39,972 nt of DNA from Candidatus Daviesbacteria bacterium GW2011_GWA2_42_7 (GTDB taxonomy: Bacteria > Patescibacteriota > Microgenomatia > Daviesbacterales > UBA10151), in the NCBI GenBank assembly GCA_000997105.1, contig LCEJ01000006.1, positions 1 to 39,972 on the forward strand, in the 5' to 3' direction. The notes under the pieces were generated by a model. The model saw nothing but the letters and a program-made list of their open reading frames with translations. It did no database searches and was not told the DNA's origin. Positions 6,950 to 39,891 of this stretch are shown in pieces (the first letter of the stretch is position 1; each line of letters begins with the position of its first letter). Made by a program: the position numbers and the translations under genes.

Positions 6950-6966
6950 GTGCCACAGCCAGGAAT
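6950..6966 (-). repeat. 17-nt duplicate of the 3' end of tRNA-Phe (att-like direct repeat)
   Basis: GTGCCACAGCCAGGAAT is identical to 7096..7112, which covers the 3' acceptor/T-arm of tRNA-Phe. Confidence 0.7.
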
Positions 6967-7057
6967 GAGTCTCGCTTCGCTCGTCTCCCCCGACATACGT
7001 CGGGGTCGAACCGCTCCGATTTTATCGGAGCTGGAATTAGATTCCTTCGACTGTAAA

Positions 7058-7376: not shown

Positions 7377-7395
7377 ATGTTTGCCCTTAGTCAAG

Positions 7396-7478
7396 TGCCG
7401 GGAAGAGGACTCGAACCTCCACGCCATTGCTGGCACATACACCTCAAGCATGCCTGTCTACCATTTCAGCATCCCGGC
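7396..7478 (-). tRNA. trnL: tRNA-Leu (GAG)
   Basis: Hand-folded 83 nt with a long variable arm. Anticodon stem-loop is CATGC-TTGAGGT-GTATG. Confidence 0.9.
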
Positions 7479-8099
7479 TTTTTGCCTAGATATTATACCT
7501 AATGCATTCATAATTTTCGAGTGTTTTCTTCCTAAACACAAAATATCTGCATTATAATAAAGCTTATTTAAGAGTAGGACAGAGCTTTTTTTAGCATATT
7601 CCAGAGTAAAAACATTAGCTCGAAAACGTATTTTACCTTTAATTCTATAAAGTTGCTCTACCTGATCACTTAGCCACTCTAGATGTTTCTTGCTAGCTGA
7701 AGTAAAGCTGGTATATAACTGAAAACTGCTTTTCCAGCGCGGGTCAAAATAAGAATATGTATAACCATCACCATCTAAACAACCCCTTAAAAAATCAGCA
7801 AAAAATCTACTTGGTATTTTAAGCTCCCCAATAGTTTTAGATTTAGCAGACGTCAGACCAATACTGAGCAAGAATCTGTAGAGTTTTACGTTACTAAACT
7901 GCACAAAGTAATAGCGTTTCTGCGAGTAGCCTGAAGATTTTGATCCTATTTTACTTGTAATCCCAACTGCATGTAAGAAATTTTTGACTTGATCTAGATC
8001 CTTAGAGGTAAAATCTAAATGTCTTCCATCTTTCGACAGACATCCATCGGTAGCAATTAACCCCACAGCATAAGCGAATTCAGCGGTCCACACCACCAC
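7458..8099 (-). CDS. LAGLIDADG family homing endonuclease (double-motif)
   Basis: Two LAGLIDADG-type motifs are present (AYAVGLIATDGCL and FLRGCLDGDGY). The start is GTG. The last 7 codons (AGMLKW*) are the first 21 nt of tRNA-Leu(GAG). Confidence 0.85.
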   Translation of the reverse strand: MVVWTAEFAYAVGLIATDGCLSKDGRHLDFTSKDLDQVKNFLHAVGITSKIGSKSSGYSQKRYYFVQFSNVKLYRFLLSIGLTSAKSKTIGELKIPSRFFADFLRGCLDGDGYTYSYFDPRWKSSFQLYTSFTSASKKHLEWLSDQVEQLYRIKGKIRFRANVFTLEYAKKSSVLLLNKLYYNADILCLGRKHSKIMNALGIISRQKAGMLKW

Positions 8100-8922: not shown

Positions 8923-9023
8923 GAGCAAGGTCGAAGTATTAATACTGAGCAAGGTCGAAGTATTAATACTGAGCAAGGTCGAAGTATTAATACTGAGCAA
9001 GGTCGAAGTATTAATACTGAGCC
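8923..9023. repeat. perfect 24-bp tandem repeat, 4.2 copies (GAGCAAGGTCGAAGTATTAATACT)
   Basis: Units at 8923, 8947, 8971 and 8995, plus a partial fifth (GAGCC). There are no spacers, so this is not a CRISPR array. Confidence 0.95.
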
Positions 9024-9046
9024 AGGATTTTTTTGTGGTGAAAAAT

Positions 9047-10115: not shown

Positions 10116-11402
10116 ATGGGGTATAAGCTTTTAGCCATCATTTTAGGCAAGGTTATTATTTATCTTACAAAGATCCTTAAAATCGGTGGGGGATCAGCAG
10201 CTCCCGGCTATTATGCACTTAAGTTTTACCCCAATTTAGTGGCTGAACTAACTAAAGATATCCCTAAAACTGTAGTCATCACAGGCACAAATGGTAAAAC
10301 CACCACCTCCCGCATGCTTTACTACTTTGCCAGGGAGCAGGGTTTAAAAGTTATCCGTAACTCCACCGGCTCGAATCTTGAACGCGGTATCGCCTCAACC
10401 CTAATTTCGAACTCACACATGTCAAGTGGGAAGCTAAAAAATGTGGACCTGGCCATTTGGGAACTGGATGAGGCTGCTTTTAACCAACTTGTCCCTGAGA
10501 AAATTAAGCCCGACATCATAATTTTTCTTAATGTTTTCAGGGACCAGCTGGACCGTTACGGCGAGATAGATTCTATTCTAAGAGGCTGGAAAAAGACTCT
10601 GGAAAAGATAGGCAAAGACACAACTGTGCTTATAAACGGAGATGACCAGAACCTGCTCGGGTTAAAAAACAGCATCAAATGCAAGGTGGAAACTTTCGGG
10701 ATAGAGGATTATAAGATAAAAGGGGAAGGGACTGTTAAAAAAATAGGGGAAGAGAAACTCGATTTAGAAGCCAAAAATGTCAATTTACTTGGGCTTTCAG
10801 GCACCAATTTTGATATCCAGGACAGACACGAAACCTGGTCCTTTTCCATACCCTTACCGGGGATTTACCATGTTTATGATTTTTTGGCAGCCTATATCAC
10901 CTCACAGAAACTCGGGATAGGGAGGCAAGCTGTAATTTCTGCTCTTGACCATTACTCCCCGGCCTTTGGCAGGGCAGAGAAACTGGATTTTGGGTATATC
11001 TTATTAATTAAAAATCCGACAGGGGCAACCCAGGTCTTGGAGACTCTAAAAGGGGAATTAAAAGTTGGGGACAGGCTGCTTTTTGCTTTAAATGATAATA
11101 TAGCCGACGGGACGGATGTTTCCTGGATCTGGGACAGTGAGTTTGAAATGCTGTCGGCTGTCAGCAGTCAGCTGTCAGCTATCTGTTCAGGCACCCGTGC
11201 AGAAGATATGGCTTTAAGGCTAAAATATGCAGGCTTGGAGCCTGAACAGATAATAATCCAGAGAGACCTTAAAAAGGCCCTCAAACAGGCTAGAGAGGGC
11301 CTAGGAGGCCGGCTCTTCATCTTGCCCACTTATACAGCACTCCTGAGATTGCAAAAGATTTTAGCCAGGGAAGGAACTAAAGAGCACTATTGGAAGGAGT
11401 AA
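10116..11402 (+). CDS. murT: lipid II isoglutaminyl synthase subunit MurT (Mur ligase family)
   Basis: P-loop VVITGTNGKTTTSRM is present, with Mur-ligase central-domain layout and a DUF1727-like C-terminus (DGTDVSWIWDSEFE..GTRAEDMALRLKYAG). The gene is adjacent to gatD. Confidence 0.85.
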   Translation: MGYKLLAIILGKVIIYLTKILKIGGGSAAPGYYALKFYPNLVAELTKDIPKTVVITGTNGKTTTSRMLYYFAREQGLKVIRNSTGSNLERGIASTLISNSHMSSGKLKNVDLAIWELDEAAFNQLVPEKIKPDIIIFLNVFRDQLDRYGEIDSILRGWKKTLEKIGKDTTVLINGDDQNLLGLKNSIKCKVETFGIEDYKIKGEGTVKKIGEEKLDLEAKNVNLLGLSGTNFDIQDRHETWSFSIPLPGIYHVYDFLAAYITSQKLGIGRQAVISALDHYSPAFGRAEKLDFGYILLIKNPTGATQVLETLKGELKVGDRLLFALNDNIADGTDVSWIWDSEFEMLSAVSSQLSAICSGTRAEDMALRLKYAGLEPEQIIIQRDLKKALKQAREGLGGRLFILPTYTALLRLQKILAREGTKEHYWKE

Positions 11403-11538
11403 AATAAAATATAATTTCTAATTCCTAATTAACCTAATTTACCTAAATAATGACCAAATGTCAGAATGTCTAATTTAGAAACTGGTAATTGGGATTTCTT
11501 TAGAAATTAGAGTACTTAGGAATTAGGTCAATTTAACT
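11403..11538. repeat. CTAATT-word inverted-repeat element; miniature derivative of the four-helix-bundle gene cassette
   Basis: Left arm is ..TTCTAATTCCTAATTAACCTAATTTACCTAAATA. The core ATGACCAAATGTCAGAATGTCTAATTTAGAAACTGG resembles the start of 39535..39891. Right arm is ..TAGAAATTAGAGTACTTAGGAATTAGGTCAATT. It fills the whole murT-gatD spacer. Confidence 0.6.
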
Positions 11539-12324
11539 ATGAAACTAATAATAGGCCATCTTTACCCTGAATTAATGAATATCTATGGTGACATGGGCAA
11601 TATTATTGCTTTACAAAAACGCGCTGAATGGAGAGGGATAGAAGTCGTTATCAAAAAGTTTTCGATCGAAAACAAATTGAAACAAGGGAAAGTTGACCTG
11701 TTTTTCTTTGGCGGAGGACAGGACCAGGCACAGGAATTAGTAGCTGGGGACTTAGTAGCTAGTAGTAAGGGTAAAATTATTAAGAAAGAAGTGGAAAAGG
11801 GGGTACCGTTGCTGGCTATTTGTGGAGGGTACCAGCTTTTAGGGGAATATTACCAACCTCACAATGCGACAAAGCTGACAGGTATCGGCGTTTTTCCGGC
11901 TTACACAGTGGCAGGAGATAATCGTATGATCGGCAACATAGTAGTTCAGAGTTCATGGTTCACGGTTCATGGACAAGAGGAAACGTCTATGAACAATGAA
12001 CTACCAGCGAAGCATACTATGAACTATCTTGTTGGTTTTGAAAACCACTCCGGTAAAACTTTTCTTAAGGAAGGTGCCCAGCCTCTGGGCCAAGTAGTCA
12101 AAGGTTTTGGTAACAACGGGGAAGACCAAACCGAAGGATGTATCTACAAAAACGCTGTCGGGTCTTACATGCATGGCTCGCTTTTGCCTAAAAACCCGGG
12201 ACTTGCCGACTGGCTGCTTACTAAAGCCTTAGAGCTAAAATATGGCAAGGAGATTGCACTGGAGCCTCTGGATAACACCCTGGAAAACCTAGCCCACAAA
12301 GCAGCTGTGCTAAAATACTCTTGA
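11539..12324 (+). CDS. gatD: lipid II isoglutaminyl synthase glutaminase subunit GatD (CobQ-type amidotransferase)
   Basis: MKLIIGHLYPELMNIYGDMGNIIAL.. and ..LAICGGYQLLG.. match the remembered S. aureus GatD. The protein carries an insertion of about 20 aa (see 11943..12025). Confidence 0.85.
   Translation: MKLIIGHLYPELMNIYGDMGNIIALQKRAEWRGIEVVIKKFSIENKLKQGKVDLFFFGGGQDQAQELVAGDLVASSKGKIIKKEVEKGVPLLAICGGYQLLGEYYQPHNATKLTGIGVFPAYTVAGDNRMIGNIVVQSSWFTVHGQEETSMNNELPAKHTMNYLVGFENHSGKTFLKEGAQPLGQVVKGFGNNGEDQTEGCIYKNAVGSYMHGSLLPKNPGLADWLLTKALELKYGKEIALEPLDNTLENLAHKAAVLKYS
11943..12025 (+). repeat. GTTCAT-word palindromic element inserted in frame in gatD
   Basis: AGTTCAGAGTTCATGGTTCACGGTTCATGGACAAGAGGAAACGTCTATGAACAATGAACTACC..ACTATGAACT is homologous to 37288..37365 and 33380..33446. 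It encodes SSWFTVHGQEETSMNNELPAKHTMNY. Confidence 0.7.
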
Positions 12325-14941: not shown

Positions 14942-16176
14942 ATGAAAAAAGTATACTATTGGCAAAAATGTATCGCTTGTGACGCTAAAATTTCACCCGA
15001 GAAGTTTTACTATACTTGCCCAAAATGCGGCAACCTGCTTTTGGTGGAACGGGACGAGGCCTGGATTGATAAAACAGTCGGGCGGGGAAAGATAGCGCGG
15101 CAGTTTTTTGATAATTTAAGATTCAGCAAAAAGGGAGACGAATATCCGTATGGCAGCGGGGTTTTTATGTGGCTGCCACATATCCTCCCCGGCTTCCCTA
15201 AAGAGATGGCAGTATCTTTACATGAGGGCTTTACCGACCTTTTTGAAATCCCCGATTGGCTTAAAAAACAGATCGGGCTTAAAAACCTGCTCATAAAAAT
15301 GGAGGGGCAGCTTCCTTCGGAAAGCTTTAAGGACCGCGGGATGTCGGTAGCAATTTCTGAGGCAATCAGGCTCCAGGCTTGGTACCCTAACTTAAATATC
15401 CGATATGTTGCCTGTGCCAGCACCGGAGATACATCTGCCTCGGCAGCCGTTTATAGCGGCTATGTCCGGGACAAACTAACCTGCTTGGTATTCCTTCCCC
15501 ACGAGAAGGTCTCACCCGAACAGCTTTTCCAGGCTATGGCCCATGGTGCCAAGGTACTTTCCATAAAACACCCCCAGGGATTTGACGGATGCATGAAGTT
15601 AATCCAGGAGTTTTGTGATGCACACCCTGAGATAGTCTTATTAAACTCCAAAAACGCATTCCGGGTAGCAGGACAGGAAACAATTGCCCTGGAGATTTGC
15701 CACGACTTAAGATGGAAAACCCCGGATTGGATCGCAGTTCCGGCAGGCAACGGCGGCAACTTAACAGCCCTGCTTATATCGCTTCTTCGGATGAAAGAGC
15801 GGGGGTTAATTGACAGACTTCCAATATTCAGGATCCGGTCAGCTTTCCCAGGATTAAAAAACTTTACGGTAATTTTAAAATCAAGTTTTATGATGTCCCG
15901 GAGGAGTCTATCCAAAGGACCAGGGCACGTTTTATGATGGCCGGGGCCAATATCTGCCCCCAAACGGCAGTGGCACTGGATGGAGTGCTTCAGGCCCGGG
16001 GAGATAGGTTTATTAAGGAAGATGAGGTCGTGGTCACTATCGGGACCGCCAGTGGTATTAAATTTGCCGCTTCCGGTATTACACACCATCTAAAAGGCAG
16101 CCCAAAGGATTTTGCCAACCCGCCGCAGGTTTTACCGGGTAATATTGCCGCCATTGAAAAAGCACTCTCCTTATAG
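14942..16176 (+). pseudogene. thrC: threonine synthase, disrupted (frame change plus internal deletion of about 20 codons near 15812-15840)
   Basis: The N-terminal part carries the zinc ribbon CIAC..CPKCG and the PLP lysine motif SFKDRG, and is in frame up to ..GLIDRLP. Frame -1 opens at 15814 and reads QTSNIQDPVSF...ANICPQTAVALDGV...VVVTIGTASGIKF, which is the TS C-terminus. The segment normally lying between the ..LP(R).. and ..(T)AI.IG.PVS motifs is missing. Confidence 0.6.
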
Positions 16177-20933: not shown

Positions 20934-22679
20934 ATGAAAGTATCAATAACTTGGTTAAAAGAATTAGTTGATTTAAAAGTTCCCGTAGAGGAGGTTGTAC
21001 GCCTTTTACCCCTTCACACCATTGGCACAAAAGAAGTAACAGAAGATTTTATCGAACTGGATATGAAAGGCTACAACCGAGCCGACCTTTTATCCATGAG
21101 GGGAGTAGCTTATGAGATAGCTGCCATTACGGATTCTGAAGTTACCTTTACTGAACCTTATTCATCCACCTTTGCCTGGACCGGCAAGGACTTACCGGAA
21201 GCACAGGTGAAAGTGGAAAACACCCAGCTTGCCCCACTGTATTGTATTGCCAAAATCAGTGGGTTAAAGGTTGGCCCCTCATCACCAGAGTGGGTTAAAA
21301 AACTTGAGGATTGCGGTATAAGGTCAATAAATAACGTGGCTGATGTAACCAACTTGGTAATGCTGGAATACGGCCAGCCTTCCCATGCTTTTGACGCCGC
21401 AGTCGTACAAGATGAATCTATAATAGTCCGAACTGCCAAAGAAGGGGAAACCCTGCTGACTTTGGATAATAAAATAAGACAGTTGTCTTCTGCTGACCTG
21501 CTGATTACCGACTCACTGAAACCGCTGGGACTGGCTGGTGTCATGGGAGGCAAGGACTCTGAGGTTACAGATTCTACAACCTCTATACTTTTAGAAGTGG
21601 CCATTTTTGACCCCGGAACCATCCGAAAAACAGCCCAAAGACATAACCTGCCATCAGAAGCAAGCAAGAGATTCCAGCACGGTTTAACCAAGGTTAGGGC
21701 TTTACAGGCTTTAGACGCGTTAATACGTATGTACCAGGGATTGGGAGGTAAGCTCGAGGCAATTTCCATCACAGACAACTTGGAGGAAGAAACCAAAAAT
21801 GTACCCTTAACCCAACAAAAGGTAAATTCCCTAATTGGCATTGAAATCAAACCCGAGGATACTATCTCCTACCTTGAAAAACTCCGCTTCCACGCCTCCG
21901 CAAGGCCTGGCCTTGCAGCGCAAGGCCTGGCCTTGCAAGCATGGGAGGTGACTATCCCTTATTGGAGGATGGATATTGGGATAGAGGAAGATTTAATTGA
22001 GGAAGTGGCCAGGATGTACGGCTATGAGAAAATTCCGGCTAAAGAACTTGGGGGAGCGTTGCCGGAAAAAATTGACCAGTCCCTGTTTGACTTAATCTAT
22101 AGCCTCAAAACTAGACTGGCAGAGCTGGGGCTGACCGAAGTTCAAACTTATTCTTTTTATTCCACCAAAGTAATTGAAAATTTAAAATTAGAAATTGAAA
22201 ATTTAATTCGTGTTGCCAATCCCATCTCTTCCGAAACCGAGTATTTAAGAACCCATCTTTGGCCAAATTTGGTGGAAACCGTGGCTAAAAATATCCGGCA
22301 AGGGTTTGAGGATATAGCTATTTTTGAAATTGGCAAGACTTATCAGACAACTAAATCAGGGGAGATCCAGGAAGAATACAAGCTGGCCATTGCCTTACTT
22401 AACGATACAGACAATCCTACCCAGGAGCTTTATCAAATTTTCCAAAGCCTAGGCTCACACCTCCGAGGTTTGAACCTAGCAACTTCTCATCTTAACCTCG
22501 GAGGTGAGTCCAAGAGACAAGAGCTTTTCCATCCAACCAGGCATGCTGTTTTAGAAAAAGACGGCCAACAAATCGGCAAAATTGCCGAGGTTCACCCAAG
22601 AATTACCGACAAGTTAGGAATAGACAAAAGGGTGGCGATACTGGAAATACTGCTTACAAGCTTACTGTTACCCCGATAG
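20934..22679 (+). CDS. pheT: phenylalanine--tRNA ligase beta subunit (short form, 581 aa)
   Basis: MKVSITWLKELVDL.. is the canonical PheT start, and B3/4 and B5 regions are recognisable. The protein lacks the long N- and C-terminal accessory domains of the E. coli enzyme. It contains the tandem palindrome insertion at 21899..21938. Confidence 0.88.
   Translation: MKVSITWLKELVDLKVPVEEVVRLLPLHTIGTKEVTEDFIELDMKGYNRADLLSMRGVAYEIAAITDSEVTFTEPYSSTFAWTGKDLPEAQVKVENTQLAPLYCIAKISGLKVGPSSPEWVKKLEDCGIRSINNVADVTNLVMLEYGQPSHAFDAAVVQDESIIVRTAKEGETLLTLDNKIRQLSSADLLITDSLKPLGLAGVMGGKDSEVTDSTTSILLEVAIFDPGTIRKTAQRHNLPSEASKRFQHGLTKVRALQALDALIRMYQGLGGKLEAISITDNLEEETKNVPLTQQKVNSLIGIEIKPEDTISYLEKLRFHASARPGLAAQGLALQAWEVTIPYWRMDIGIEEDLIEEVARMYGYEKIPAKELGGALPEKIDQSLFDLIYSLKTRLAELGLTEVQTYSFYSTKVIENLKLEIENLIRVANPISSETEYLRTHLWPNLVETVAKNIRQGFEDIAIFEIGKTYQTTKSGEIQEEYKLAIALLNDTDNPTQELYQIFQSLGSHLRGLNLATSHLNLGGESKRQELFHPTRHAVLEKDGQQIGKIAEVHPRITDKLGIDKRVAILEILLTSLLLPR
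21899..21938 (+). repeat. two tandem copies of the 20-nt unit CGCAAGGCCTGGCCTTGCA(G/A) inside pheT
   Basis: The same palindrome is intergenic at 419..435. It is translated as ..ARPGLAAQGLALQ.. Confidence 0.75.
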
Positions 22680-32118: not shown

Positions 32119-33637
<1,519 letters not shown>

Positions 33638-33727
33638 AATATTTAGATGCTAGATATTAGATAGCTAGATAGTTAGTTTTAAAAACATAGTGTTTTTTAA
33701 CTATTATCTAGTATCTAGTTAACTAGT
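33638..33727. repeat. CTAGAT-word imperfect palindrome in the atpG-atpD spacer
   Basis: The arms TTAGATGCTAGATATTAGATAGCTAGATAGTTAG and CTATTATCTAGTATCTAGTTAACTAG flank a central A/T hairpin. Confidence 0.55.
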
Positions 33728-33738
33728 CCCATTCTTTC

Positions 33739-34632
33739 TCATTCCAACGCTGCTCCTGCAGAGGTTATCTCCAAAAGCTCGTTAGTAATTGCCCCCTGGC
33801 GTACCTGATTATAAGTAAGTGTTAAATCCGAAACAAGGTCTTTAGCATTGTCCGTTGCATTTTGCATAGCAATCATCCTGGCCGAATGTTCAGAGGCCCT
33901 GGTTTCAAGAAGCGCCTGGTAAATTTGGGTATCAACCAAATGTGTTAAAGCAAAGTCTAAAACCTGGTCCGCATCCGGTTCAAAGATAAACTCACCCGTT
34001 TTTCCTTCATCTGTCATTCCGGCCACTTCTCTGTCATTCTGGCGAATGACATTTGGGTCAACAGGCAGCAGTTTTACCAGTCTCGGTTCCTGGCGCAAGG
34101 TTGAAACAAAATGCGGATACACTAAATAGACCTCTCCTATTTCACAGTTATCAAAAGTCCTAAGCATAAAATTCCGCAACTTCATGGCCTGGGTAAAATC
34201 AATATGCTCAAAACTTTCAAAATCAGCCTCCAGGTTTTTTCCGGTCCTTACCACAAAATCCCGCCCCTTTTTCCCAACCGTATAGAAAACAATATTTTCT
34301 GCTTTTTTACCTGCAACTATGAACTCCGAACTCTGAACTAACCTTACCAAGTTGGTATTTAAGGCTCCACAAAGGCCCTTGTCAGTTGAAAAAACTAAAA
34401 CCCCGACCTTACCTGAGCTATTAGCCATTAAAAGCTTGTGGGCTTCCGGATGGATTTTACCGGATACTTGGGATAAGGCATAACTTATGATCGAACTATA
34501 AGGCCTGCCTGAAAGGGCCTGGCTTTGGGCCCGGCGCATTTTAGTGGCCGAAACCATCTGCATCGCTTTGGTAATTTGCGATGTATTTTTCACAGATTTT
34601 ATTCTTCTTCTAAGATCACGTGTACTAGCCAT
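33739..34632 (-). CDS. atpG: F1 ATP synthase gamma subunit
   Basis: ..IKSVKNTSQITKAMQMVSATKMRRAQ.. is the N-terminus and ..ITNELLEITSGAAAL is the C-terminus. Both are canonical. Confidence 0.93.
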   Translation of the reverse strand: MASTRDLRRRIKSVKNTSQITKAMQMVSATKMRRAQSQALSGRPYSSIISYALSQVSGKIHPEAHKLLMANSSGKVGVLVFSTDKGLCGALNTNLVRLVQSSEFIVAGKKAENIVFYTVGKKGRDFVVRTGKNLEADFESFEHIDFTQAMKLRNFMLRTFDNCEIGEVYLVYPHFVSTLRQEPRLVKLLPVDPNVIRQNDREVAGMTDEGKTGEFIFEPDADQVLDFALTHLVDTQIYQALLETRASEHSARMIAMQNATDNAKDLVSDLTLTYNQVRQGAITNELLEITSAGAALE

Positions 34633-34744
34633 ATACTTGTCAAATTAACCTAATTGACCTAATTTCTAATTACCTAATTAAATCCCAATGTACCAATTTA
34701 GAAATTTGGCATTGGTACTTATTTAGAGTTTAGAAATTAGAAAT
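34633..34744. repeat. CTAATT-word inverted-repeat element; miniature derivative of the four-helix-bundle cassette
   Basis: Left arm is AAATTAACCTAATTGACCTAATTTCTAATTACCTAATTAA. Core is ATCCCAATGTACCAATTTAGAAATTTGGCATTGG. Right arm is ..TTTAGAGTTTAGAAATTAGAAATTT. It fills the whole atpA-atpG spacer. Confidence 0.6.
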
Positions 34745-36367
34745 TTATTTAACTCCTCTCTTAAATGTTTCTACAAACTTTTTCGTGACACTCTCAAGCT
34801 TCTTGGTTAATTTTTCATCCAGTTCCTTTTTTTCGGCAATTTCTTTTAAAATTTCCTTCTCTTTAAGCTTTAAGTGGGATATAAATTTATTCTCAAAGTC
34901 CCTAACCTTTTCCACCGGTAGCTCATCCAGATACCCTTGAGTCACTGCCCAAAGGATAGCGATCTGTTCTTCAACAGGCACCGGTTGGTAAGGAGGCTGT
35001 TTTAAAATCTCTGTAATCCTTTTTCCTCTTTCAATTTGGGCCTTGGTACCGGGATCTAAATCAGAAGAAAACTGGGCAAAAGCAGCCAACTCCCTAAATT
35101 GGGCCAGGTCCAGCCTAAGCTTTCCGGCTACACCTTTCATAGCCTTATTTTGCGCCGATCCGCCGACCCGGGAAACGGAAAGCCCGACATTTAGTGCCGG
35201 CCTCATCCCGGCAAAGAAAAGGTCGGATTCAAGGTATATTTGCCCGTCGGTAATAGAAATAACATTGGTAGGGATATAGGCCGAAACATCACCGGCCTGG
35301 GTTTCAATAATCGGAAGCGAAGTTAGTGACCCCCCGCCAAAATCTTTAAGACTGCCATCAGGTAGTCGCAAGCTCTGCTTACTCATCCGGGCCGACCTTT
35401 CCAAAAGCCGGGAGTGGAGGTAAAAAACATCTCCCGGGTAAGCCTCACGTCCGGAAGGCCTTCGGAGTAAAAGTGAAACCTGTCGGTAAGCCCAAGCGTG
35501 CTTGGATAAATCGTCGTAGATAATCAAGGCGTCTTTTCCCTGGTCCATAAAATATTCACCAATCGCAGTGCCGGAGTAGGGGGCAAGGTATTGCATAGGT
35601 GCCGGGTCAGAAGCAGAGGCAGATACCACAATGGTATGGTCCATTGCCCCATGCTCTTCCAATTTAGCCACCAGCTGGGCAATCTTGGAGGATTTTTGGC
35701 CAATAGCTACATAGATGCAAATTACCGGAGAGCTTTCAGTCTTCAGACTCGCTTCGCTGTCAGATTTCAGACTTTTATCTTTTTTGTCTGACGACTGACG
35801 ACTGACGACTGACGACTTCCCTTGGTTAATAATCGTATCAACCGCAATGGTAGTTTTTCCGGTATTTCTATCACCAATAATAAGCTCTCTTTGCCCGCGT
35901 CCTATCGGGATCATGGCATCAATTGCTTTAATCCCGGTCTGCAAGGGGACTGAGACGCTCTGGCGGGTAATAACTCCGGAGGCCACTTTTTCTACAGGGT
36001 AAGACTGCTTTGTTTTAATCGGTCCTTTGCCATCAATCGGTTTCCCTAAGGCATCAACCACCCGGCCTAACATCTCCTCACCAACCGGGATTTGTAATAA
36101 CTTGCCGGTAGTTTTTACCTCGTCACCCTCGCGGATCCCGGTAAAATCCCCTAGGATAATTGCCCCCACGCTGTATTGTTCTAAATTCAGGGCCAAACCG
36201 AAAACCCCACCGGGGAATTCAATAAGTTCTGATGCCTGGACCTCCGATAGCCCTTCAATCTTGGCAATACCGTCACCAACCTCAACCACTTTACCCACAT
36301 TCTGCTTTGCAGCTTTGGTTTTTAAGTTAAAAATATCACTCTCTATTGATTTAATTAAATCGCTCAT
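34745..36367 (-). CDS. atpA: F1 ATP synthase alpha subunit
   Basis: Walker A GDRNTGKT is present, and the protein is collinear with the remembered E. coli AtpA apart from an insertion of about 28 aa between ..TIINQ and ..CIYVAIGQK. Confidence 0.95.
35737..35818 (-). repeat. GTC(G/T)TCAG-word palindromic element inserted in frame in atpA
   Basis: The plus strand reads CAGTCTTCAGACTCGCTTCGCTGTCAGATTTCAGAC-TTTTATCTTTTTT-GTCTGACGACTGACGACTGACGACTGACGAC. It encodes ..[30 protein letters not shown]... Confidence 0.65.
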
Positions 36368-36793: not shown

Positions 36794-37285
36794 TTAAAGC
36801 TCCTTTATTGATTTATCAATCAAATCTTTTTGATCTTTCCCGTAGATTACTTTGCCGGTTACTTTTTGCATTGCCAAAACTACCAGGTTGGAAATTTCCT
36901 CCCGCACCTCCTGGTGTAACTTTTCCCGCTCCCGTTTCATTGCCTCCTCTGATTTAGCAATCATTTTTTTAATATCCTCACCGGCCTTAACATGCGCCTC
37001 ATTGATAATCTGCCCGGCAGCCTGGGTTGCCTCTTTGATAACTTCTTCTGCTTCCTTACCGGCTTTTCTTAGAGCCTCTTCACGTTCCTCGCTGATCTTT
37101 TGTAACTTTTTCTCAATTTCTTCGGCATTTTTCATGCTCTCGGCAATAACTCCCTTCCTTTTTTCGAGCATCCCCAAGATGGGTTTATAGAGGAACTTCT
37201 TTAAGATAAAAAGGAGTATAAAAAAGTTAACCGCCTGCGCAGCCAAAAGGACAGGTTTAACTCCAAAGTCATTAAGAAAATCCAT
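36794..37285 (-). CDS. atpF: Fo ATP synthase subunit b
   Basis: A single N-terminal TM segment is followed by a long charged helix. The position in the operon fits. Confidence 0.85.
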   Translation of the reverse strand: MDFLNDFGVKPVLLAAQAVNFFILLFILKKFLYKPILGMLEKRKGVIAESMKNAEEIEKKLQKISEEREEALRKAGKEAEEVIKEATQAAGQIINEAHVKAGEDIKKMIAKSEEAMKREREKLHQEVREEISNLVVLAMQKVTGKVIYGKDQKDLIDKSIKEL

Positions 37286-37287
37286 GA

Positions 37288-37362
37288 TTAGTTATGAGTT
37301 CACAGTTCATAGTTCATGGACAGAGAAAGTTCTTCTATGAACCATGAACCAATAACTATGAA

Positions 37363-37365
<3 letters not shown>
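37288..37365. repeat. GTTCAT-word palindromic element, intergenic copy (atpE-atpF spacer)
   Basis: Sequence is ..GAGTTCACAGTTCATAGTTCATGGACAGAGAAAGTTCTTCTATGAACCATGAACCAATAACTATGAACT. The arms are reverse complements of each other with a few mismatches. Confidence 0.7.
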
Positions 37366-38318
<953 letters not shown>

Positions 38319-38395: not shown

Positions 38396-39499
38396 ATGAC
38401 CAATGACGAAAAATTTAATCTAATCACCAGAAACCTGGAAGAAACCCTGACCCCTGAGGAATTAAAGTCCTTAATAGAATCCGGAACCCCTTTAAAACAC
38501 TACATAGGTTTCGAAATTTCCGGAAAAGTCCATTTAGGAACCGGGCTTTACGCTATGCTTAAGATTAGGGACTTGCAAAAGGCTGGGGTAGAGACAACCG
38601 TCCTTTTAGCCGACTGGCATACTTGGCTTAATAAAAAGCTTGATGGCACTTTAGGGACCGCTTCAAGACTGGGAAGGGAGTATTTTCAGGAAGGGTTAAA
38701 AGCAGCCGCCCTTTGTGCCGGGGCAGACATTGAAAAAATCGAGTTTGTCTTAGGCAGTGAACACTACCAAAAGTCAGGCTTGGGTTATTGGTCAGCTGTA
38801 ATTAAAGTCTCCAAGGCTACAACCCTAGCCCGGATGATGCGTTCAACCACCATCATGGGACGCAAGGAGGGAGAAATCTCCGATGCAGCCATGTTGATTT
38901 ACCCCCCGATGCAGGCAGCCGATATCTTTACCTTGGGAGTCAATCTTTCCCATGCAGGCACAGACCAGAGAAATGTCCATGTTGTCGCCCGGGACACTGC
39001 TTCCGAAACAGGTTTCCCTAAGCCCATGGTTATCCATCACCATTTACTCCAGGGATTACTCAAACCACCTGTCTGGCCAATTCCTGAAGGTGACAGGGAA
39101 GCGGCGGTTGAGGCAATTAAAATGAGCAAATCCAAACCGGACAGTGCAATATTTATCCATGACACTCCCGAAGAAATAAGAAGAAAATTGAGTAACGCCT
39201 TTTGCCCCGAGGGGGAAGTGAATTTCAATCCTATTTTGGATTGGGTAAAACATTTAATCTTTTGCGACCAAGATTCTAAATTGGAAATTAAGAGGGATGA
39301 AAAGTGGGGAGGGAATTTGACCTACACGTTCTATGGAGACTTAGAAAAAGACTATGCAGAGAAAAAATTGCACCCTCAGGACTTAAAAAACGCTGTGGCC
39401 GAGTGGTTAATCATCAAACTTGAGCCGGCCAGGAAATACTTTGAAGACCCAAAAAGAAAAGCAGCTTTAGAAGAGATTGAGAAATTAACATCGAGATAA
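38396..39499 (+). CDS. tyrS: tyrosine--tRNA ligase, archaeal/eukaryotic-type (no bacterial C-terminal S4-like domain)
   Basis: The protein is collinear with the remembered M. jannaschii TyrRS (..YIGFE.SGK.HLG.., ..YP.MQ..DI.., KMSKS, ..LHP.DLKNAVAE.LI..LEP.R). The start is set at ATG 38396, 6 nt after TATAAT (38384..38389). Confidence 0.88.
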   Translation: MTNDEKFNLITRNLEETLTPEELKSLIESGTPLKHYIGFEISGKVHLGTGLYAMLKIRDLQKAGVETTVLLADWHTWLNKKLDGTLGTASRLGREYFQEGLKAAALCAGADIEKIEFVLGSEHYQKSGLGYWSAVIKVSKATTLARMMRSTTIMGRKEGEISDAAMLIYPPMQAADIFTLGVNLSHAGTDQRNVHVVARDTASETGFPKPMVIHHHLLQGLLKPPVWPIPEGDREAAVEAIKMSKSKPDSAIFIHDTPEEIRRKLSNAFCPEGEVNFNPILDWVKHLIFCDQDSKLEIKRDEKWGGNLTYTFYGDLEKDYAEKKLHPQDLKNAVAEWLIIKLEPARKYFEDPKRKAALEEIEKLTSR

Positions 39500-39534
39500 T
39501 TACTAATTAACCTAATTACTAATTGACCTAATTA
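39500..39534 (+). repeat. CTAATT-word left arm of the four-helix-bundle gene cassette
   Basis: TTACTAATTAACCTAATTACTAATTGACCTAATTA shares ATTAACCTAATTGACCTAATT-type words with 11415..11440 and 34652..34690. Confidence 0.6.
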
Positions 39535-39891
39535 ATGACTAATGGAGAAAATGACAAAAAGTTTGATTTAGAAGAAAGAACAGCGAAATTTGGTGAAAAT
39601 ATAATTAAATTCTGTCAGAAAGTTCCTAGAGGCCCAATAACAGACCCTTTAATTACACAATTAGTTAAATGTGGAACCAGTACCGGTGCAAATTATTGCG
39701 AAGCAGACGATGCTGAAAGCAGACAAGATTTTAGGCATAAAATTGGAATTTGCAAAAAGGAATCAAGAGAGTCAAAGCACTTTGTTAGGATGATTGTAAT
39801 GGCTTTGCCAGAACTTAAAGAAGAAGCCAAACCATTATGGCAAGAAGCCAAGGAGCTAAACTTGATATTTAACTCCTACATTCAAGGTTGA
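39535..39891 (+). CDS. four-helix-bundle protein (23S rRNA intervening-sequence protein family)
   Basis: ..FDLEERTAKFGENIIKFCQKVP.. and ..QLVKCGTSTGANYCEADDAESRQDFRHKIGICKKESRESKHF.. match the remembered family pattern (GANY.EA......DF..K......E..E). Confidence 0.8.
   Translation: MTNGENDKKFDLEERTAKFGENIIKFCQKVPRGPITDPLITQLVKCGTSTGANYCEADDAESRQDFRHKIGICKKESRESKHFVRMIVMALPELKEEAKPLWQEAKELNLIFNSYIQG

What the first reader, a model, noticed from the sequence alone, without database searches (positions are those of the whole stretch)
11943..12025. The same GTTCAT-word palindromic element is intergenic in the atp operon and inserted in frame, in the same reading frame, in gatD and atpD
Three copies were seen. 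One is intergenic at 37288..37365 in the atpE-atpF spacer. One is inside gatD (11943..12025). One is inside atpD (33380..33446, gene on the minus strand). In gene orientation the two coding copies share AGTTCATGGTTCA and ACAATGAACTAC exactly. They are translated in the same frame, giving related peptides: SSWFTVHGQEETSMNNELPAKH in GatD and [19 protein letters not shown] in AtpD. Compared with remembered reference sequences the insertions add about 20 aa at loop positions. In GatD this lies between G(D/N)IV(I/V).S and VGFENH. In AtpD it lies between ..ALEV and LVLEVQQ. The reading frames stay open. This resembles Rickettsia palindromic elements (RPEs), which colonise protein-coding genes. I am not aware of it being described for this kind of organism. 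Two essential enzymes, ATP synthase beta and the lipid II amidotransferase, carry it.
Basis: partly seen in the sequence, partly recalled or inferred. Interest (0 to 1): 0.8.

Follow-up and report, generated by a model that had tools for sequence, protein, structure and literature searches.

The report
Heptamer-armed hairpin repeats inside essential genes
A tiny groundwater bacterium (Candidatus Daviesbacteria, candidate phyla radiation) carries short hairpin-forming DNA repeats built from 7-base units, both between genes and, kept in frame, inside essential genes such as ATP synthase and a cell-wall enzyme, much as Rickettsia does with its palindromic elements.

Summary
All three GTTCA copies sit at the stated coordinates, and atpG holds a fourth, half copy. 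Their similarity is far above chance. Each copy has 3-4 tandem GTTCAnn heptamers, a purine-rich loop, then nnTGAAC heptamers.

The GatD and AtpD copies add 21 and 16 residues at beta-hairpin turns. A 94%-identical AtpD ortholog lacks the insert, so it is not ancestral sequence.

The same frame is forced. Only 1 of 6 frames is stop-free, because TGAAC units carry TGA.

The phenomenon is much wider than reported:
- The window holds other heptamer families, in atpA, murT and three spacers.
- The same protein turns carry different inserts in many other Daviesbacteria.
- The atpA element here is 68/71 nt identical to an element inside gatD of another Daviesbacteria genome. This shows discrete dispersed elements.
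- GTTCA-heptamer hairpins are specifically enriched in viral and metagenome contigs. There they are mostly intergenic, but some lie in frame in P-type ATPase and RadA genes.

Best reading: selfish or neutral hairpin repeats that work like Rickettsia palindromic elements. Their arms behave like heptameric microsatellites. How they move is unknown. I found no description for candidate phyla radiation bacteria. I rate it a new variant of a known kind.

The parts
11942..12025 (+). GTTCA-family heptamer hairpin inside gatD (gene 11539-12324). It is translated as QSSWFTVHGQEETSMNNELPAKHTMNY and adds 21 aa between RMIGNIV and LVGFENH.
   Evidence: AF2 model: the insert has pLDDT below 50 and lies between strands 132-137 and 162-168.
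33380..33449 (-). GTTCA-family hairpin inside atpD (gene 32119-33534, ATG at 33534). It is translated as [21 protein letters not shown] and adds 16 aa at a turn of the N-terminal beta-barrel.
37288..37365 (.). GTTCA-family hairpin that fills the atpE/atpF spacer. It overlaps the atpE stop codon and ends 2 nt before the atpF ATG. It has stops in all six frames.
   Evidence: (63 nt extra against relative L175, whose spacer is 14 nt).
34310..34341 (-). Left-arm-only GTTCA array (GTTCAGA GTTCGGA GTTCATA GTTGCAG) inside atpG, peptide VQSSEFIVAG. A relative (L177) has a GAGTTAA array at the same site.
35736..35818 (-). Second family: (GTCGTCA)x4 hairpin inside atpA (gene 34745-36367). It is 90 nt extra against the relative and translates as [29 protein letters not shown]. 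It is 68/71 nt identical to an element inside gatD of genome GCA_030648645.1.
33644..33717 (.). Third family: TAGATnn heptamer hairpin in the atpG/atpD spacer.
   Evidence: z = -5.5.
34640..34745 (.). Heptamer-armed hairpin (AATTTCT / TAATTAG units) filling the atpA/atpG spacer. It is 111 nt extra against the relative. L177 has an AAACTCA array in the same spacer.
   Evidence: z = -4.8.
11405..11530 (.). TAATTCC/GGAATTA-armed hairpin in the murT/gatD spacer. It shares a 40-nt stretch with the atpA/atpG spacer element.
   Evidence: D10, D15, I25; z = -3.4.
11150..11183 (+). Tandem heptamer array (GCTGTCA x4.4) inside murT, peptide MLSAVSSQLSAI, with no opposing arm. Eight other Daviesbacteria loci have a period-7 array with a different word at this same murT site.
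39497..39535 (.). TAATTAC/TAATTAA repeat cluster in the spacer before the last ORF. The word is the same as in the murT/gatD spacer element.
   Evidence: (D10).

Best explanation
The window comes from Candidatus Daviesbacteria bacterium RIFCSPLOWO2_01_FULL_43_38 or a near-identical strain (Microgenomates, candidate phyla radiation). Its genome is colonised by several families of short (about 55-110 nt), non-coding-origin hairpin repeats. Each arm is a run of tandem 7-nt units.

The elements are discrete sequences that get copied to new loci, between genes and into genes. Once in place, the arms behave like heptameric microsatellites. Unit numbers change by slippage. The two arms and neighbouring units keep each other alike. 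The loop drifts.

An element that lands in a gene survives only under three conditions. Its length must keep the frame. The frame read must have no stop. The site must tolerate 10-30 extra residues. For the GTTCA family only one of six frames qualifies, because every TGAAC unit holds a TGA, and the unit that would fall in phase has to be degenerate. The tolerant sites are exposed beta-hairpin turns and loops, so the same few turns of GatD, AtpD, AtpA and MurT are found occupied again and again across the lineage. The surviving copies are translated as extra loop peptides.

Shown here: the existence, anatomy and similarity of the copies; empty sites in close orthologs; the single open frame; near-identity of one element between different genes of different genomes.

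Inferred: that the peptides are made; that the elements are neutral or selfish; slippage and arm homogenisation.

Unknown: the enzyme or recombination route that moves them.
For: Identity of the organism.

Discrete dispersed elements:
- The atpA element here and the gatD element in L339 (GCA_030648645.1) match at 68/71 nt, plus one 12-nt loop indel. The alignment scores 88 against a shuffle maximum of 13.
- At the peptide level E = 2e-8. The two GatD proteins themselves are only 71% identical.
- The gatD and spacer GTTCA copies share arms, loop start (CATGGACA-GAG-AAA) and ends, with 64 of 90 columns identical.

Insertion, not ancestry:
- An empty site occurs in a 94%-identical AtpD.
- Against that relative's atp operon the window has extra blocks exactly at the hairpins. 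In the order atpE/F spacer, atpA, atpA/G spacer, atpG, atpG/D spacer and atpD, they measure 63, 90, 111, about 10, 202 and 48 nt.

Frame constraint: exactly 1 of 6 frames is open in each coding copy and none in the spacer copy. The in-phase TGA is replaced by CCA in gatD and CAA in atpD.

Tolerant sites:
- 79 of 120 GatD homologs and 47 of 120 AtpD homologs carry extra residues at these turns, with many different sequences.
- The GatD insert lies between two strands in the AF2 model.
- The segments are absent from solved structures.

Microsatellite behaviour:
- Period-7 arrays number 7 against 0.25 expected in the window, with none at periods 5, 6 or 8-12.
- Unit number and loops vary between copies.
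- Related words occur at orthologous loci. In atpG the window has GAGTTCn and L177 has GAGTTAA. In the atpA/G spacer the window has AAACTCT and L177 has AAACTCA.

Generality:
- GTTCA period-7 hairpins occur in 88 IMG/VR stretches. Period 6 gives 13, period 8 gives 20, and two scrambled words give 2 and 3.
- More than 120 metagenome loci carry them. 112 are intergenic and 8 lie in ORFs of at least 150 aa. Five of these are in recognisable proteins read in the same frame and peptide pattern: a P-type ATPase with two copies, a second P-type ATPase at the same site, a RadA-like protein, a Wzy_C/TPR protein and a 4399-aa protein. The other three, in short ORFs or high-GC contigs, were not checked and may be spurious.
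Against: No transposase, Y1/HUH (RAYT-type) gene or parent insertion sequence was seen. Pfam found none in ten window proteins, and the precomputed hits on the called genes show none, but the rest of the genome was not available.

No target-site duplication or fixed element end could be defined. Arm length varies, and the arms are often unequal.

Across more than 120 metagenome loci the loops of GTTCA hairpins are all different. A classical copy-and-paste repeat family would not look like this.

The many different words at one and the same protein site fit in-place array turnover at least as well as repeated insertion.

Period-7 words are not significantly more alike within a locus than between loci: 7% against 5% of pairs within one mismatch.

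No strain-level presence/absence polymorphism was found among six 99.5-100% identical assemblies.

Translation of the inserts is inferred only from intact frames.
Confidence: 0.68

Rival explanations
1. Purely local origin. The hairpins are not mobile. Certain DNA sites are mutational hot spots where a 7-nt unit expands by polymerase slippage and is turned into an inverted array by template switching. Likeness between copies comes from shared constraints: no stops, tolerated residues and AT-rich composition.
For: - The same site of murT carries a period-7 array with a different word in nine genomes. pheS and the gatD N-terminus show the same pattern.
- Loops of GTTCA hairpins are all different, and arm lengths are variable and often unequal.
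- Orthologous loci have related but drifted words.
- Heptameric repeats are known to be over-represented in bacteria. They vary quickly between close relatives, and a polymerase-slippage cause has been proposed (PMC4692102).
- There is no within-locus excess of shared words overall.
Against: - 68/71 nt identity, loop side included, between an element in atpA here and one in gatD of a genome whose GatD is 71% identical.
- The gatD and spacer copies share the loop start and the ends.
- The word GTTCA at period 7 is 30-40 times more frequent in hairpin form than scrambled words of the same composition. Slippage alone does not predict this.
Confidence: 0.17
2. Functional cis-element. The heptad arrays are binding sites for a protein that reads 7-bp units in direct and inverted order, as the ribbon-helix-helix omega repressor of plasmid pSM19035 does (from my own knowledge). 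Alternatively they are RNA hairpins that set mRNA stability, termination or translation within operons. The coding copies would then be by-products, or would regulate the host gene.
For: - In viral contigs the hairpins sit in nearly every spacer between co-directional genes. Some lie directly before a ribosome-binding site and start codon.
- In the window four of the atp operon spacers are filled by such hairpins.
- The word GTTCA and the period of 7 are specifically favoured across contigs of 34-70% G+C. This suggests recognition by something conserved.
- Three heptads equal two turns of the double helix (inference).
Against: - Relative L175 runs the same atp operon with none of these hairpins.
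- No Rfam family matches them.
- No candidate binding protein was identified.
- A regulatory role does not explain in-frame copies in the middle of gatD, atpA and atpD.
Confidence: 0.1
3. Adaptive protein loops. The inserted peptides were kept because they give ATP synthase and MurT/GatD new surface features, for example contacts suited to the episymbiotic lifestyle. The DNA palindrome would then be incidental.
For: - The frames are kept open in essential genes.
- The inserts are identical across many samples.
- The arm-loop-arm layout would encode a strand-turn-strand extension of an existing beta-hairpin (inference).
Against: - Insert sequence and length at a given site differ wildly between close relatives, and 41 of 120 GatD and 71 of 120 AtpD homologs do without.
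- The same DNA also sits in spacers with stops in all frames.
- The AF2 model gives no confident structure for the insert.
Confidence: 0.05

Closest known systems
Rickettsia palindromic elements (RPEs; Ogata et al. 2000, as summarised in PMC3184786)
   Same: Short palindromic repeats occur both between genes and inside protein-coding genes. They are kept in frame and add a peptide segment to otherwise conserved, often essential proteins in a small-genome bacterium. No transposase of their own is known.
   Different: RPEs are about 105-146 bp and are conserved along their whole length. Heptamer-built arms are not part of their description. The elements here are 55-110 nt, have arms made of tandem 7-nt units of variable number, and have fast-changing loops. 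The host is a candidate phyla radiation bacterium, not an alphaproteobacterium. Sequence relatedness to RPE families was not tested.
Heptameric simple sequence repeats: STRR of Calothrix/Nostoc, GGGAATC of Xanthomonas, GGGGAYT of Nostoc (PMC4692102)
   Same: Both are tandem 7-nt units over-represented in particular genomes. Length and sequence change quickly between close relatives at the same locus. Some arrays occur as inverted pairs able to form stem-loops.
   Different: The known repeats are described as intergenic and G-rich (quadruplex-forming). The arrays here are AT-rich, are regularly organised as arm-loop-arm hairpins, recur as whole units at unrelated loci, and sit in frame inside essential genes.
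MITEs and REP/REPIN elements (PMC3184786 and PMC3116915, listed)
   Same: Both are small, non-autonomous, hairpin-forming dispersed repeats. They are mostly extragenic and are sometimes fused to reading frames.
   Different: I found no terminal inverted repeats of fixed length, no target-site duplication, no conserved GTAG-type head and no linked RAYT or parent IS. The arms are internally periodic.
Heptad operator/centromere arrays bound by omega protein of pSM19035 (from my own knowledge, not checked in the library)
   Same: Both are runs of contiguous 7-bp units in direct and inverted orientation, placed before genes.
   Different: Those arrays have a known binding protein, a different word (WATCACW) and a plasmid location. 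No binding protein is known here, and many copies lie inside genes.

Membership tests
Rickettsia palindromic elements (RPE) | Palindromic repeat present in many copies, intergenic and inside ORFs, with the host frame preserved | tested here: met
   Hairpin folds have z from -2.8 to -6. Copies lie in gatD, atpD, atpA and atpG and in spacers. One open frame is retained.
Rickettsia palindromic elements (RPE) | Sequence belongs to one of the RPE families (about 105-146 bp consensus, Rickettsia) | not tested
   No RPE consensus was available to align. Size (55-110 nt), heptamer arms and host differ from the description in PMC3184786. I therefore do not file it as an RPE.
MITE | Terminal inverted repeats of defined length flanked by a target-site duplication | tested here: inconclusive
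   The ends often read TAGTTCA...TGAACTA. Outward palindrome extension over 120 loci gave no fixed end and no consistent flanking duplication. The only empty-site comparisons are at 77% nt identity.
MITE | A related autonomous insertion sequence with the same ends | not testable with these tools
   Only about 48 kb of this genome could be read (window plus L178). No transposase appears among the called genes or in the Pfam scan of ten window proteins.
REP/REPIN with RAYT | Extragenic 20-40 nt palindrome with a conserved head motif, and a RAYT (Y1 transposase) gene flanked by REPs | tested here: not met
   The elements are larger, periodic and partly intragenic. No Y1_Tnp hit appears in the window or its flanks. 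The genome-wide search was not possible, so a distant RAYT is not excluded.
Heptameric SSR / STRR-type repeats | Tandem head-to-tail 7-nt units over-represented relative to other periods | tested here: met
   Period 7 gives 7 arrays against 0.25 expected, with none at periods 5, 6 or 8-12. TRF lists 13 rows with period 7, some overlapping the same array. Relatives show the same.
Heptameric SSR / STRR-type repeats | Intergenic location | tested here: not met
   Arrays and hairpins lie inside gatD, atpD, atpA, atpG and murT. In relatives they lie inside murT, pheS and gatD.
Heptad arrays bound by ribbon-helix-helix proteins (omega type) | Cognate DNA-binding protein that reads each heptad | not testable with these tools
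   No candidate protein was identified. Only the layout (direct plus inverted heptads before genes) and the word and period specificity resemble it.

The most novel reading that the evidence does not exclude
GTTCA-heptad hairpins, and sister families such as GTCGTCA, may be a cross-phylum class of element with its own still unrecognised machinery. One candidate is an enzyme that writes or copies 7-nt units onto both sides of a DNA break or hairpin. Another is a conserved heptad-reading protein that mobilises them. In that reading, candidate phyla radiation bacteria tolerate the activity inside essential genes. Their core enzymes would then be continually remodelled at a fixed set of beta-turns, as a natural, ongoing loop-insertion mutagenesis of ATP synthase, MurT/GatD, aminoacyl-tRNA synthetases, RadA and P-type ATPases.
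Probability: 0.15. Interest if true: 0.9.

Novelty: new variant of a known kind. Interest (0 to 1): 0.72.

Why it matters
In-frame colonisation of essential genes by selfish palindromes has been a textbook curiosity of Rickettsia. Finding the same outcome in a candidate phyla radiation bacterium points to a general route by which very small genomes gain protein loops. The element type here is different: heptamer-armed and related to microsatellites. The same few turns of core enzymes are occupied over and over across a whole lineage.

It has practical consequences as well:
- These inserts inflate and fragment alignments of marker proteins such as AtpD, AtpA and PheS/T used for phylogeny of these groups.
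- They place frameshift-prone 7-nt arrays inside essential genes.
- They can mislead gene callers and structure predictors.

The strong and specific enrichment of the GTTCA word at period 7 across unrelated metagenome and viral contigs suggests an unrecognised, widespread repeat class. Its mechanism could now be sought by co-occurrence analysis.

Tried and rejected
- Peptide search for further host proteins. A concatenate of 12 GTTCA-type insert peptides returned only the GatD/AtpD proteins they came from, plus one further AtpD-type fragment (P0247). More hosts were found only through the DNA scan.
- BLAST of a typical hairpin against PLSDB plasmids gave no match. The low-complexity filter probably masked the query.
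- Search for a target-site duplication or fixed ends by outward palindrome extension gave no consistent signal.
- Test for same genome, same word over all period-7 arrays was not significant (7% against 5%). The idea holds only for particular families: GTTCA at four window loci, and GAGTTAA at two L177 loci.
- Strain-level presence/absence among six near-identical assemblies showed no hairpin polymorphism, only unrelated indels.
- The AF2 model of GatD has no confident structure for the insert (pLDDT below 50). Only its position between two strands can be used.
- Rfam matched only tRNAs.
- Strict exact-word hairpin detection found few hits in the relatives. The looser period-7 scan was needed.
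- The genome-contig scan with a GatD profile saturated on non-Daviesbacteria and did not return the source genome.
- Four literature searches for a prior description in candidate phyla radiation/Patescibacteria, or of the printed repeat sequences, found nothing relevant. A fifth, on STRR heptanucleotides, only re-listed Rehm et al. 2015.
- I considered that the loop is the retained native turn, because of KNGK in the L177 AtpD loop and GK in several GatD loops. I rejected this as unproven. The spacer copy of the GTTCA element has the same CAT-GGA-CA loop start, so the Gly codon belongs to the element.
- I considered a tRNA T-loop or LexA-box origin for GTTCA. I dropped it because the variable positions do not fit.
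Full report
**Source and context**

The exact GatD and AtpD proteins of the window are those of Candidatus Daviesbacteria bacterium RIFCSPLOWO2_01_FULL_43_38 (GCA_001776675.1, contig MFCT01000011). They recur in many independent assemblies from NCBI, JGI, ENA and Logan. The organism belongs to the Microgenomates, within the candidate phyla radiation. The window differs from that NCBI contig by a few indels, so it comes from a sister assembly of the same population.

Genes relevant here:
- murT 10116-11402 and gatD 11539-12324 on the plus strand.
- The atp operon on the minus strand: atpB 37587-38318, atpE, atpF 36794-37285, atpH, atpA 34745-36367, atpG 33739-34632 and atpD 32119-33534.

The three copies are at the stated places. 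Each has 3-4 tandem heptamers GTTCAnn, a 15-20 nt purine-rich loop, then nnTGAAC heptamers. The ends read TAGTT...AACTA.
- The word pair GTTCATRGTTCA (up to 1 mismatch) occurs 8 times against 0.23 expected.
- Hairpins defined by a word at i and i+7, with its complement twice downstream, number 4 in the window and 0 in 50 simulations.
- A global alignment of the gatD and spacer copies has 64 identical columns of 90 (z = 22). It includes the loop start CATGGACA-GAG-AAA and both ends. gatD against atpD gives z = 8.8.
- All copies fold as hairpins well beyond shuffled controls.
- A fourth, left-arm-only copy lies in atpG (34310-34341).

**The inserts are lineage-specific**
- GatD is 261 aa against 240 aa for orthologs with a plain turn (IESMF-GK-LVGFENH). 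AtpD is 471 aa against 455 aa (EI-GK[12 protein letters not shown]).
- Solved GatD (9sq9) and F1 beta (2qe7) align with gaps of about 19 and 15 residues at exactly these points.
- Within the 90% cluster of this AtpD, one member (P0242, 94% identical) has the empty site. Another (P0243, 93%) has a different, longer hairpin there.
- I aligned the whole atp operon with that of the P0242 organism (L175, 77% nt identity). The window has extra blocks precisely at hairpins: 63 nt in the atpE/F spacer, 90 nt in atpA, 111 nt in the atpA/G spacer, about 10 nt in atpG, 202 nt in the atpG/D spacer and 48 nt in atpD.
- The AF2 model of GatD places the insert between two beta-strands, with no confident structure of its own.

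**Why the same frame**

Each coding copy is open in exactly one of six frames. The spacer copy has stops in all six. Every TGAAC unit contains TGA, and three consecutive units put it in all three phases. The unit that would be in phase is degenerate in the coding copies: CCA in gatD and CAA in atpD. The shared frame is therefore a survivorship filter, not evidence of targeted integration.

**The phenomenon is broader than the finding**

Period-7 tandem arrays are specifically enriched in the window: 7 against 0.25 expected, with none at periods 5, 6 or 8-12 (TRF). Other word families are present:
- (GTCGTCA)x4 hairpin in atpA, peptide [29 protein letters not shown].
- TAGAT hairpin in the atpG/D spacer.
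- AATTTCT/TAATTAG hairpins in the atpA/G and murT/gatD spacers.
- A GCTGTCA tandem array in murT.

Among the 120 closest homologs, 79 GatD and 47 AtpD proteins carry extra residues at these same turns, up to +32 and +28 aa. The sequences are very diverse and look like translated repeat hairpins. DNA from relatives confirms this:
- L095 has CGATAA-type heptamer arms.
- L101 has 8-mer arms.
- L104 has a GTTCA-type hairpin like the window's.
- L099 has (AAATTTC)x4.

Period-7 arrays with different words occupy the same position of murT (between WDxxFE and CSGTRA) in nine genomes. They also recur in pheS and at the gatD N-terminus.

**Evidence for discrete, dispersed elements**

The atpA element of the window and the element inside gatD of another Daviesbacteria genome (GCA_030648645.1, L339) match at 68 of 71 aligned bases, plus one 12-nt loop indel. 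BLASTP of the peptides gives E = 2e-8. The two GatD proteins are only 71% identical. The same about 80-nt sequence in two unrelated genes of two diverged genomes cannot be explained by local slippage.

The same peptide family (SSVVSRQSS...SLK.DSEA.LKT) occurs in GatD of at least five further homologs. The GAGTTAA family occurs in both AtpD and GatD of different genomes.

**Beyond Daviesbacteria**
- The hairpin pattern GTTCANNGTTCA-N(8-38)-TGAACNNTGAAC hits 88 stretches of IMG/VR contigs, several with 3-10 copies.
- The same word at period 6 gives 13 and at period 8 gives 20. Two scrambled words at period 7 give 2 and 3.
- 112 of the 120 are intergenic and 8 lie in ORFs of at least 150 aa. Five are in recognisable proteins: a P-type ATPase with two copies, a second P-type ATPase at the same site, a RadA-like protein, a Wzy_C/TPR membrane protein and a 4399-aa protein. 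They are read in the same frame and give the same peptide pattern, SxF[IMT]VHG...[ST]MN[NYH]E[LP]. The other three are in short ORFs or high-GC contigs, were not checked, and may be spurious.
- In viral contigs the hairpins sit in spacers between co-directional genes, sometimes just before a ribosome-binding site.
- (GTCGTCA)n hairpins also occur in high-GC viral contigs.

**What argues for microsatellite-like behaviour on top of dispersal**
- Loops of the GTTCA hairpins are all different between loci, and arm lengths vary and are often unequal.
- Orthologous loci of the window and L177 carry related but shifted words. In atpG these are GAGTTCn and GAGTTAA. In the atpA/G spacer they are AAACTCT and AAACTCA.
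- Rehm et al. 2015 (PMC4692102) report three relevant things. Heptameric repeats are over-represented in many bacteria. They vary fast between close relatives at conserved loci. Some form inverted pairs. A polymerase-slippage cause has been proposed.

**Interpretation**

I conclude that these are selfish or neutral hairpin repeats. They are copied between loci by an unknown route. Their arms are then maintained and reshaped by slippage and arm-to-arm correction. Inside genes they persist only when in frame, stop-free and at tolerant turns. This is what RPEs do in Rickettsia (PMC3184786), but the element is of a different build and the host is different.

I found no transposase or target-site duplication. 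Five literature searches, and reading of two of the papers they listed, turned up no prior description for candidate phyla radiation bacteria. Absence from the held library is not proof of novelty.

**Caveats**
- Translation of the inserts is inferred from intact frames only.
- Only about 48 kb of this genome could be inspected.
- The taxonomic origin of most metagenome and viral hits is unknown.
- The best empty-site comparison is at 77% nucleotide identity, too distant to read exact junctions.

Noticed in passing
window 21899-21942 (pheT) and 419-441: A GC-rich 17-nt palindrome, GCAAGGCCTGGCCTTGC, occurs twice in tandem in frame in pheT (peptide ARPGLAAQGLALQAW) and once more at 419-441. Other Daviesbacteria have one LASQG..L.AW unit or nothing at this PheT turn. 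This is a second, non-heptamer kind of in-frame palindrome at a recurrently occupied site.
   Followed up: partly
window 33550-33640 (between the TAGAT hairpin and atpD): A second copy of the atpD 5' end (ATGAATAAAGGAAAAATAGCACAAGTCAT..., [10 protein letters not shown]...) lies just upstream of the real atpD start. It reads on into 28 unrelated codons and a stop. It looks like a duplicated or displaced gene start created when the 202-nt extra block arose.
   Followed up: no
window 15822/15823 (PALP-domain gene, ORFs 14942-15937 and 15934-16176): The window lacks 112 nt that five sister assemblies have here, and L005 has a 96-nt version. The gene is split by a frameshift in the window. This is either an assembly error or a strain deletion.
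   Followed up: partly
window 4048/4049: Sister assembly L001 has 117 extra nt here. The segment looks like a tRNA gene on the minus strand and is absent from the window.
   Followed up: no
window 7458-8099 (-), overlapping tRNA-Leu 7395-7478: A LAGLIDADG-type ORF is called next to the tRNA cluster in some sister assemblies (L002, L003, L005, L006) but not in L001 or L004. L001 has a run of N just upstream of it (window 6965-7004).
   Followed up: no
window 8923-9026: A perfect 24-nt tandem repeat (GAGCAAGGTCGAAGTATTAATACT, 4.3 copies) lies between or within two small ORFs of unknown function. Copy number appears to differ between sister assemblies.
   Followed up: no
window 35349-35381 (atpA) and 34009-34023 (atpG): Two further in-frame extra blocks relative to L175. 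One is 33 nt in atpA ([11 protein letters not shown]). The other is 15 nt in atpG, inside a 20-nt near-duplication. Neither has heptamer structure.
   Followed up: no
window 39535-39891: The last ORF is a 23S rRNA intervening-sequence protein (PF05635). All assemblies break just after it, which suggests an rRNA operon with an intervening sequence next door.
   Followed up: no
AtpD homologs P0005, P0011, P0019, P0043, P0062: A different insert type at the same AtpD turn (PSRHPERSEGS...SS.SAQND) looks like the translation of another, non-heptamer palindromic repeat. From memory, the same peptide turns up in other candidate phyla radiation proteins.
   Followed up: no
L190 (metagenome contig Ga0075722_101): One P-type ATPase gene carries two separate GTTCA-type in-frame hairpins. 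A second organism (L201) has one at the same second site, before the VAFVGDGINDAPALA motif.
   Followed up: partly
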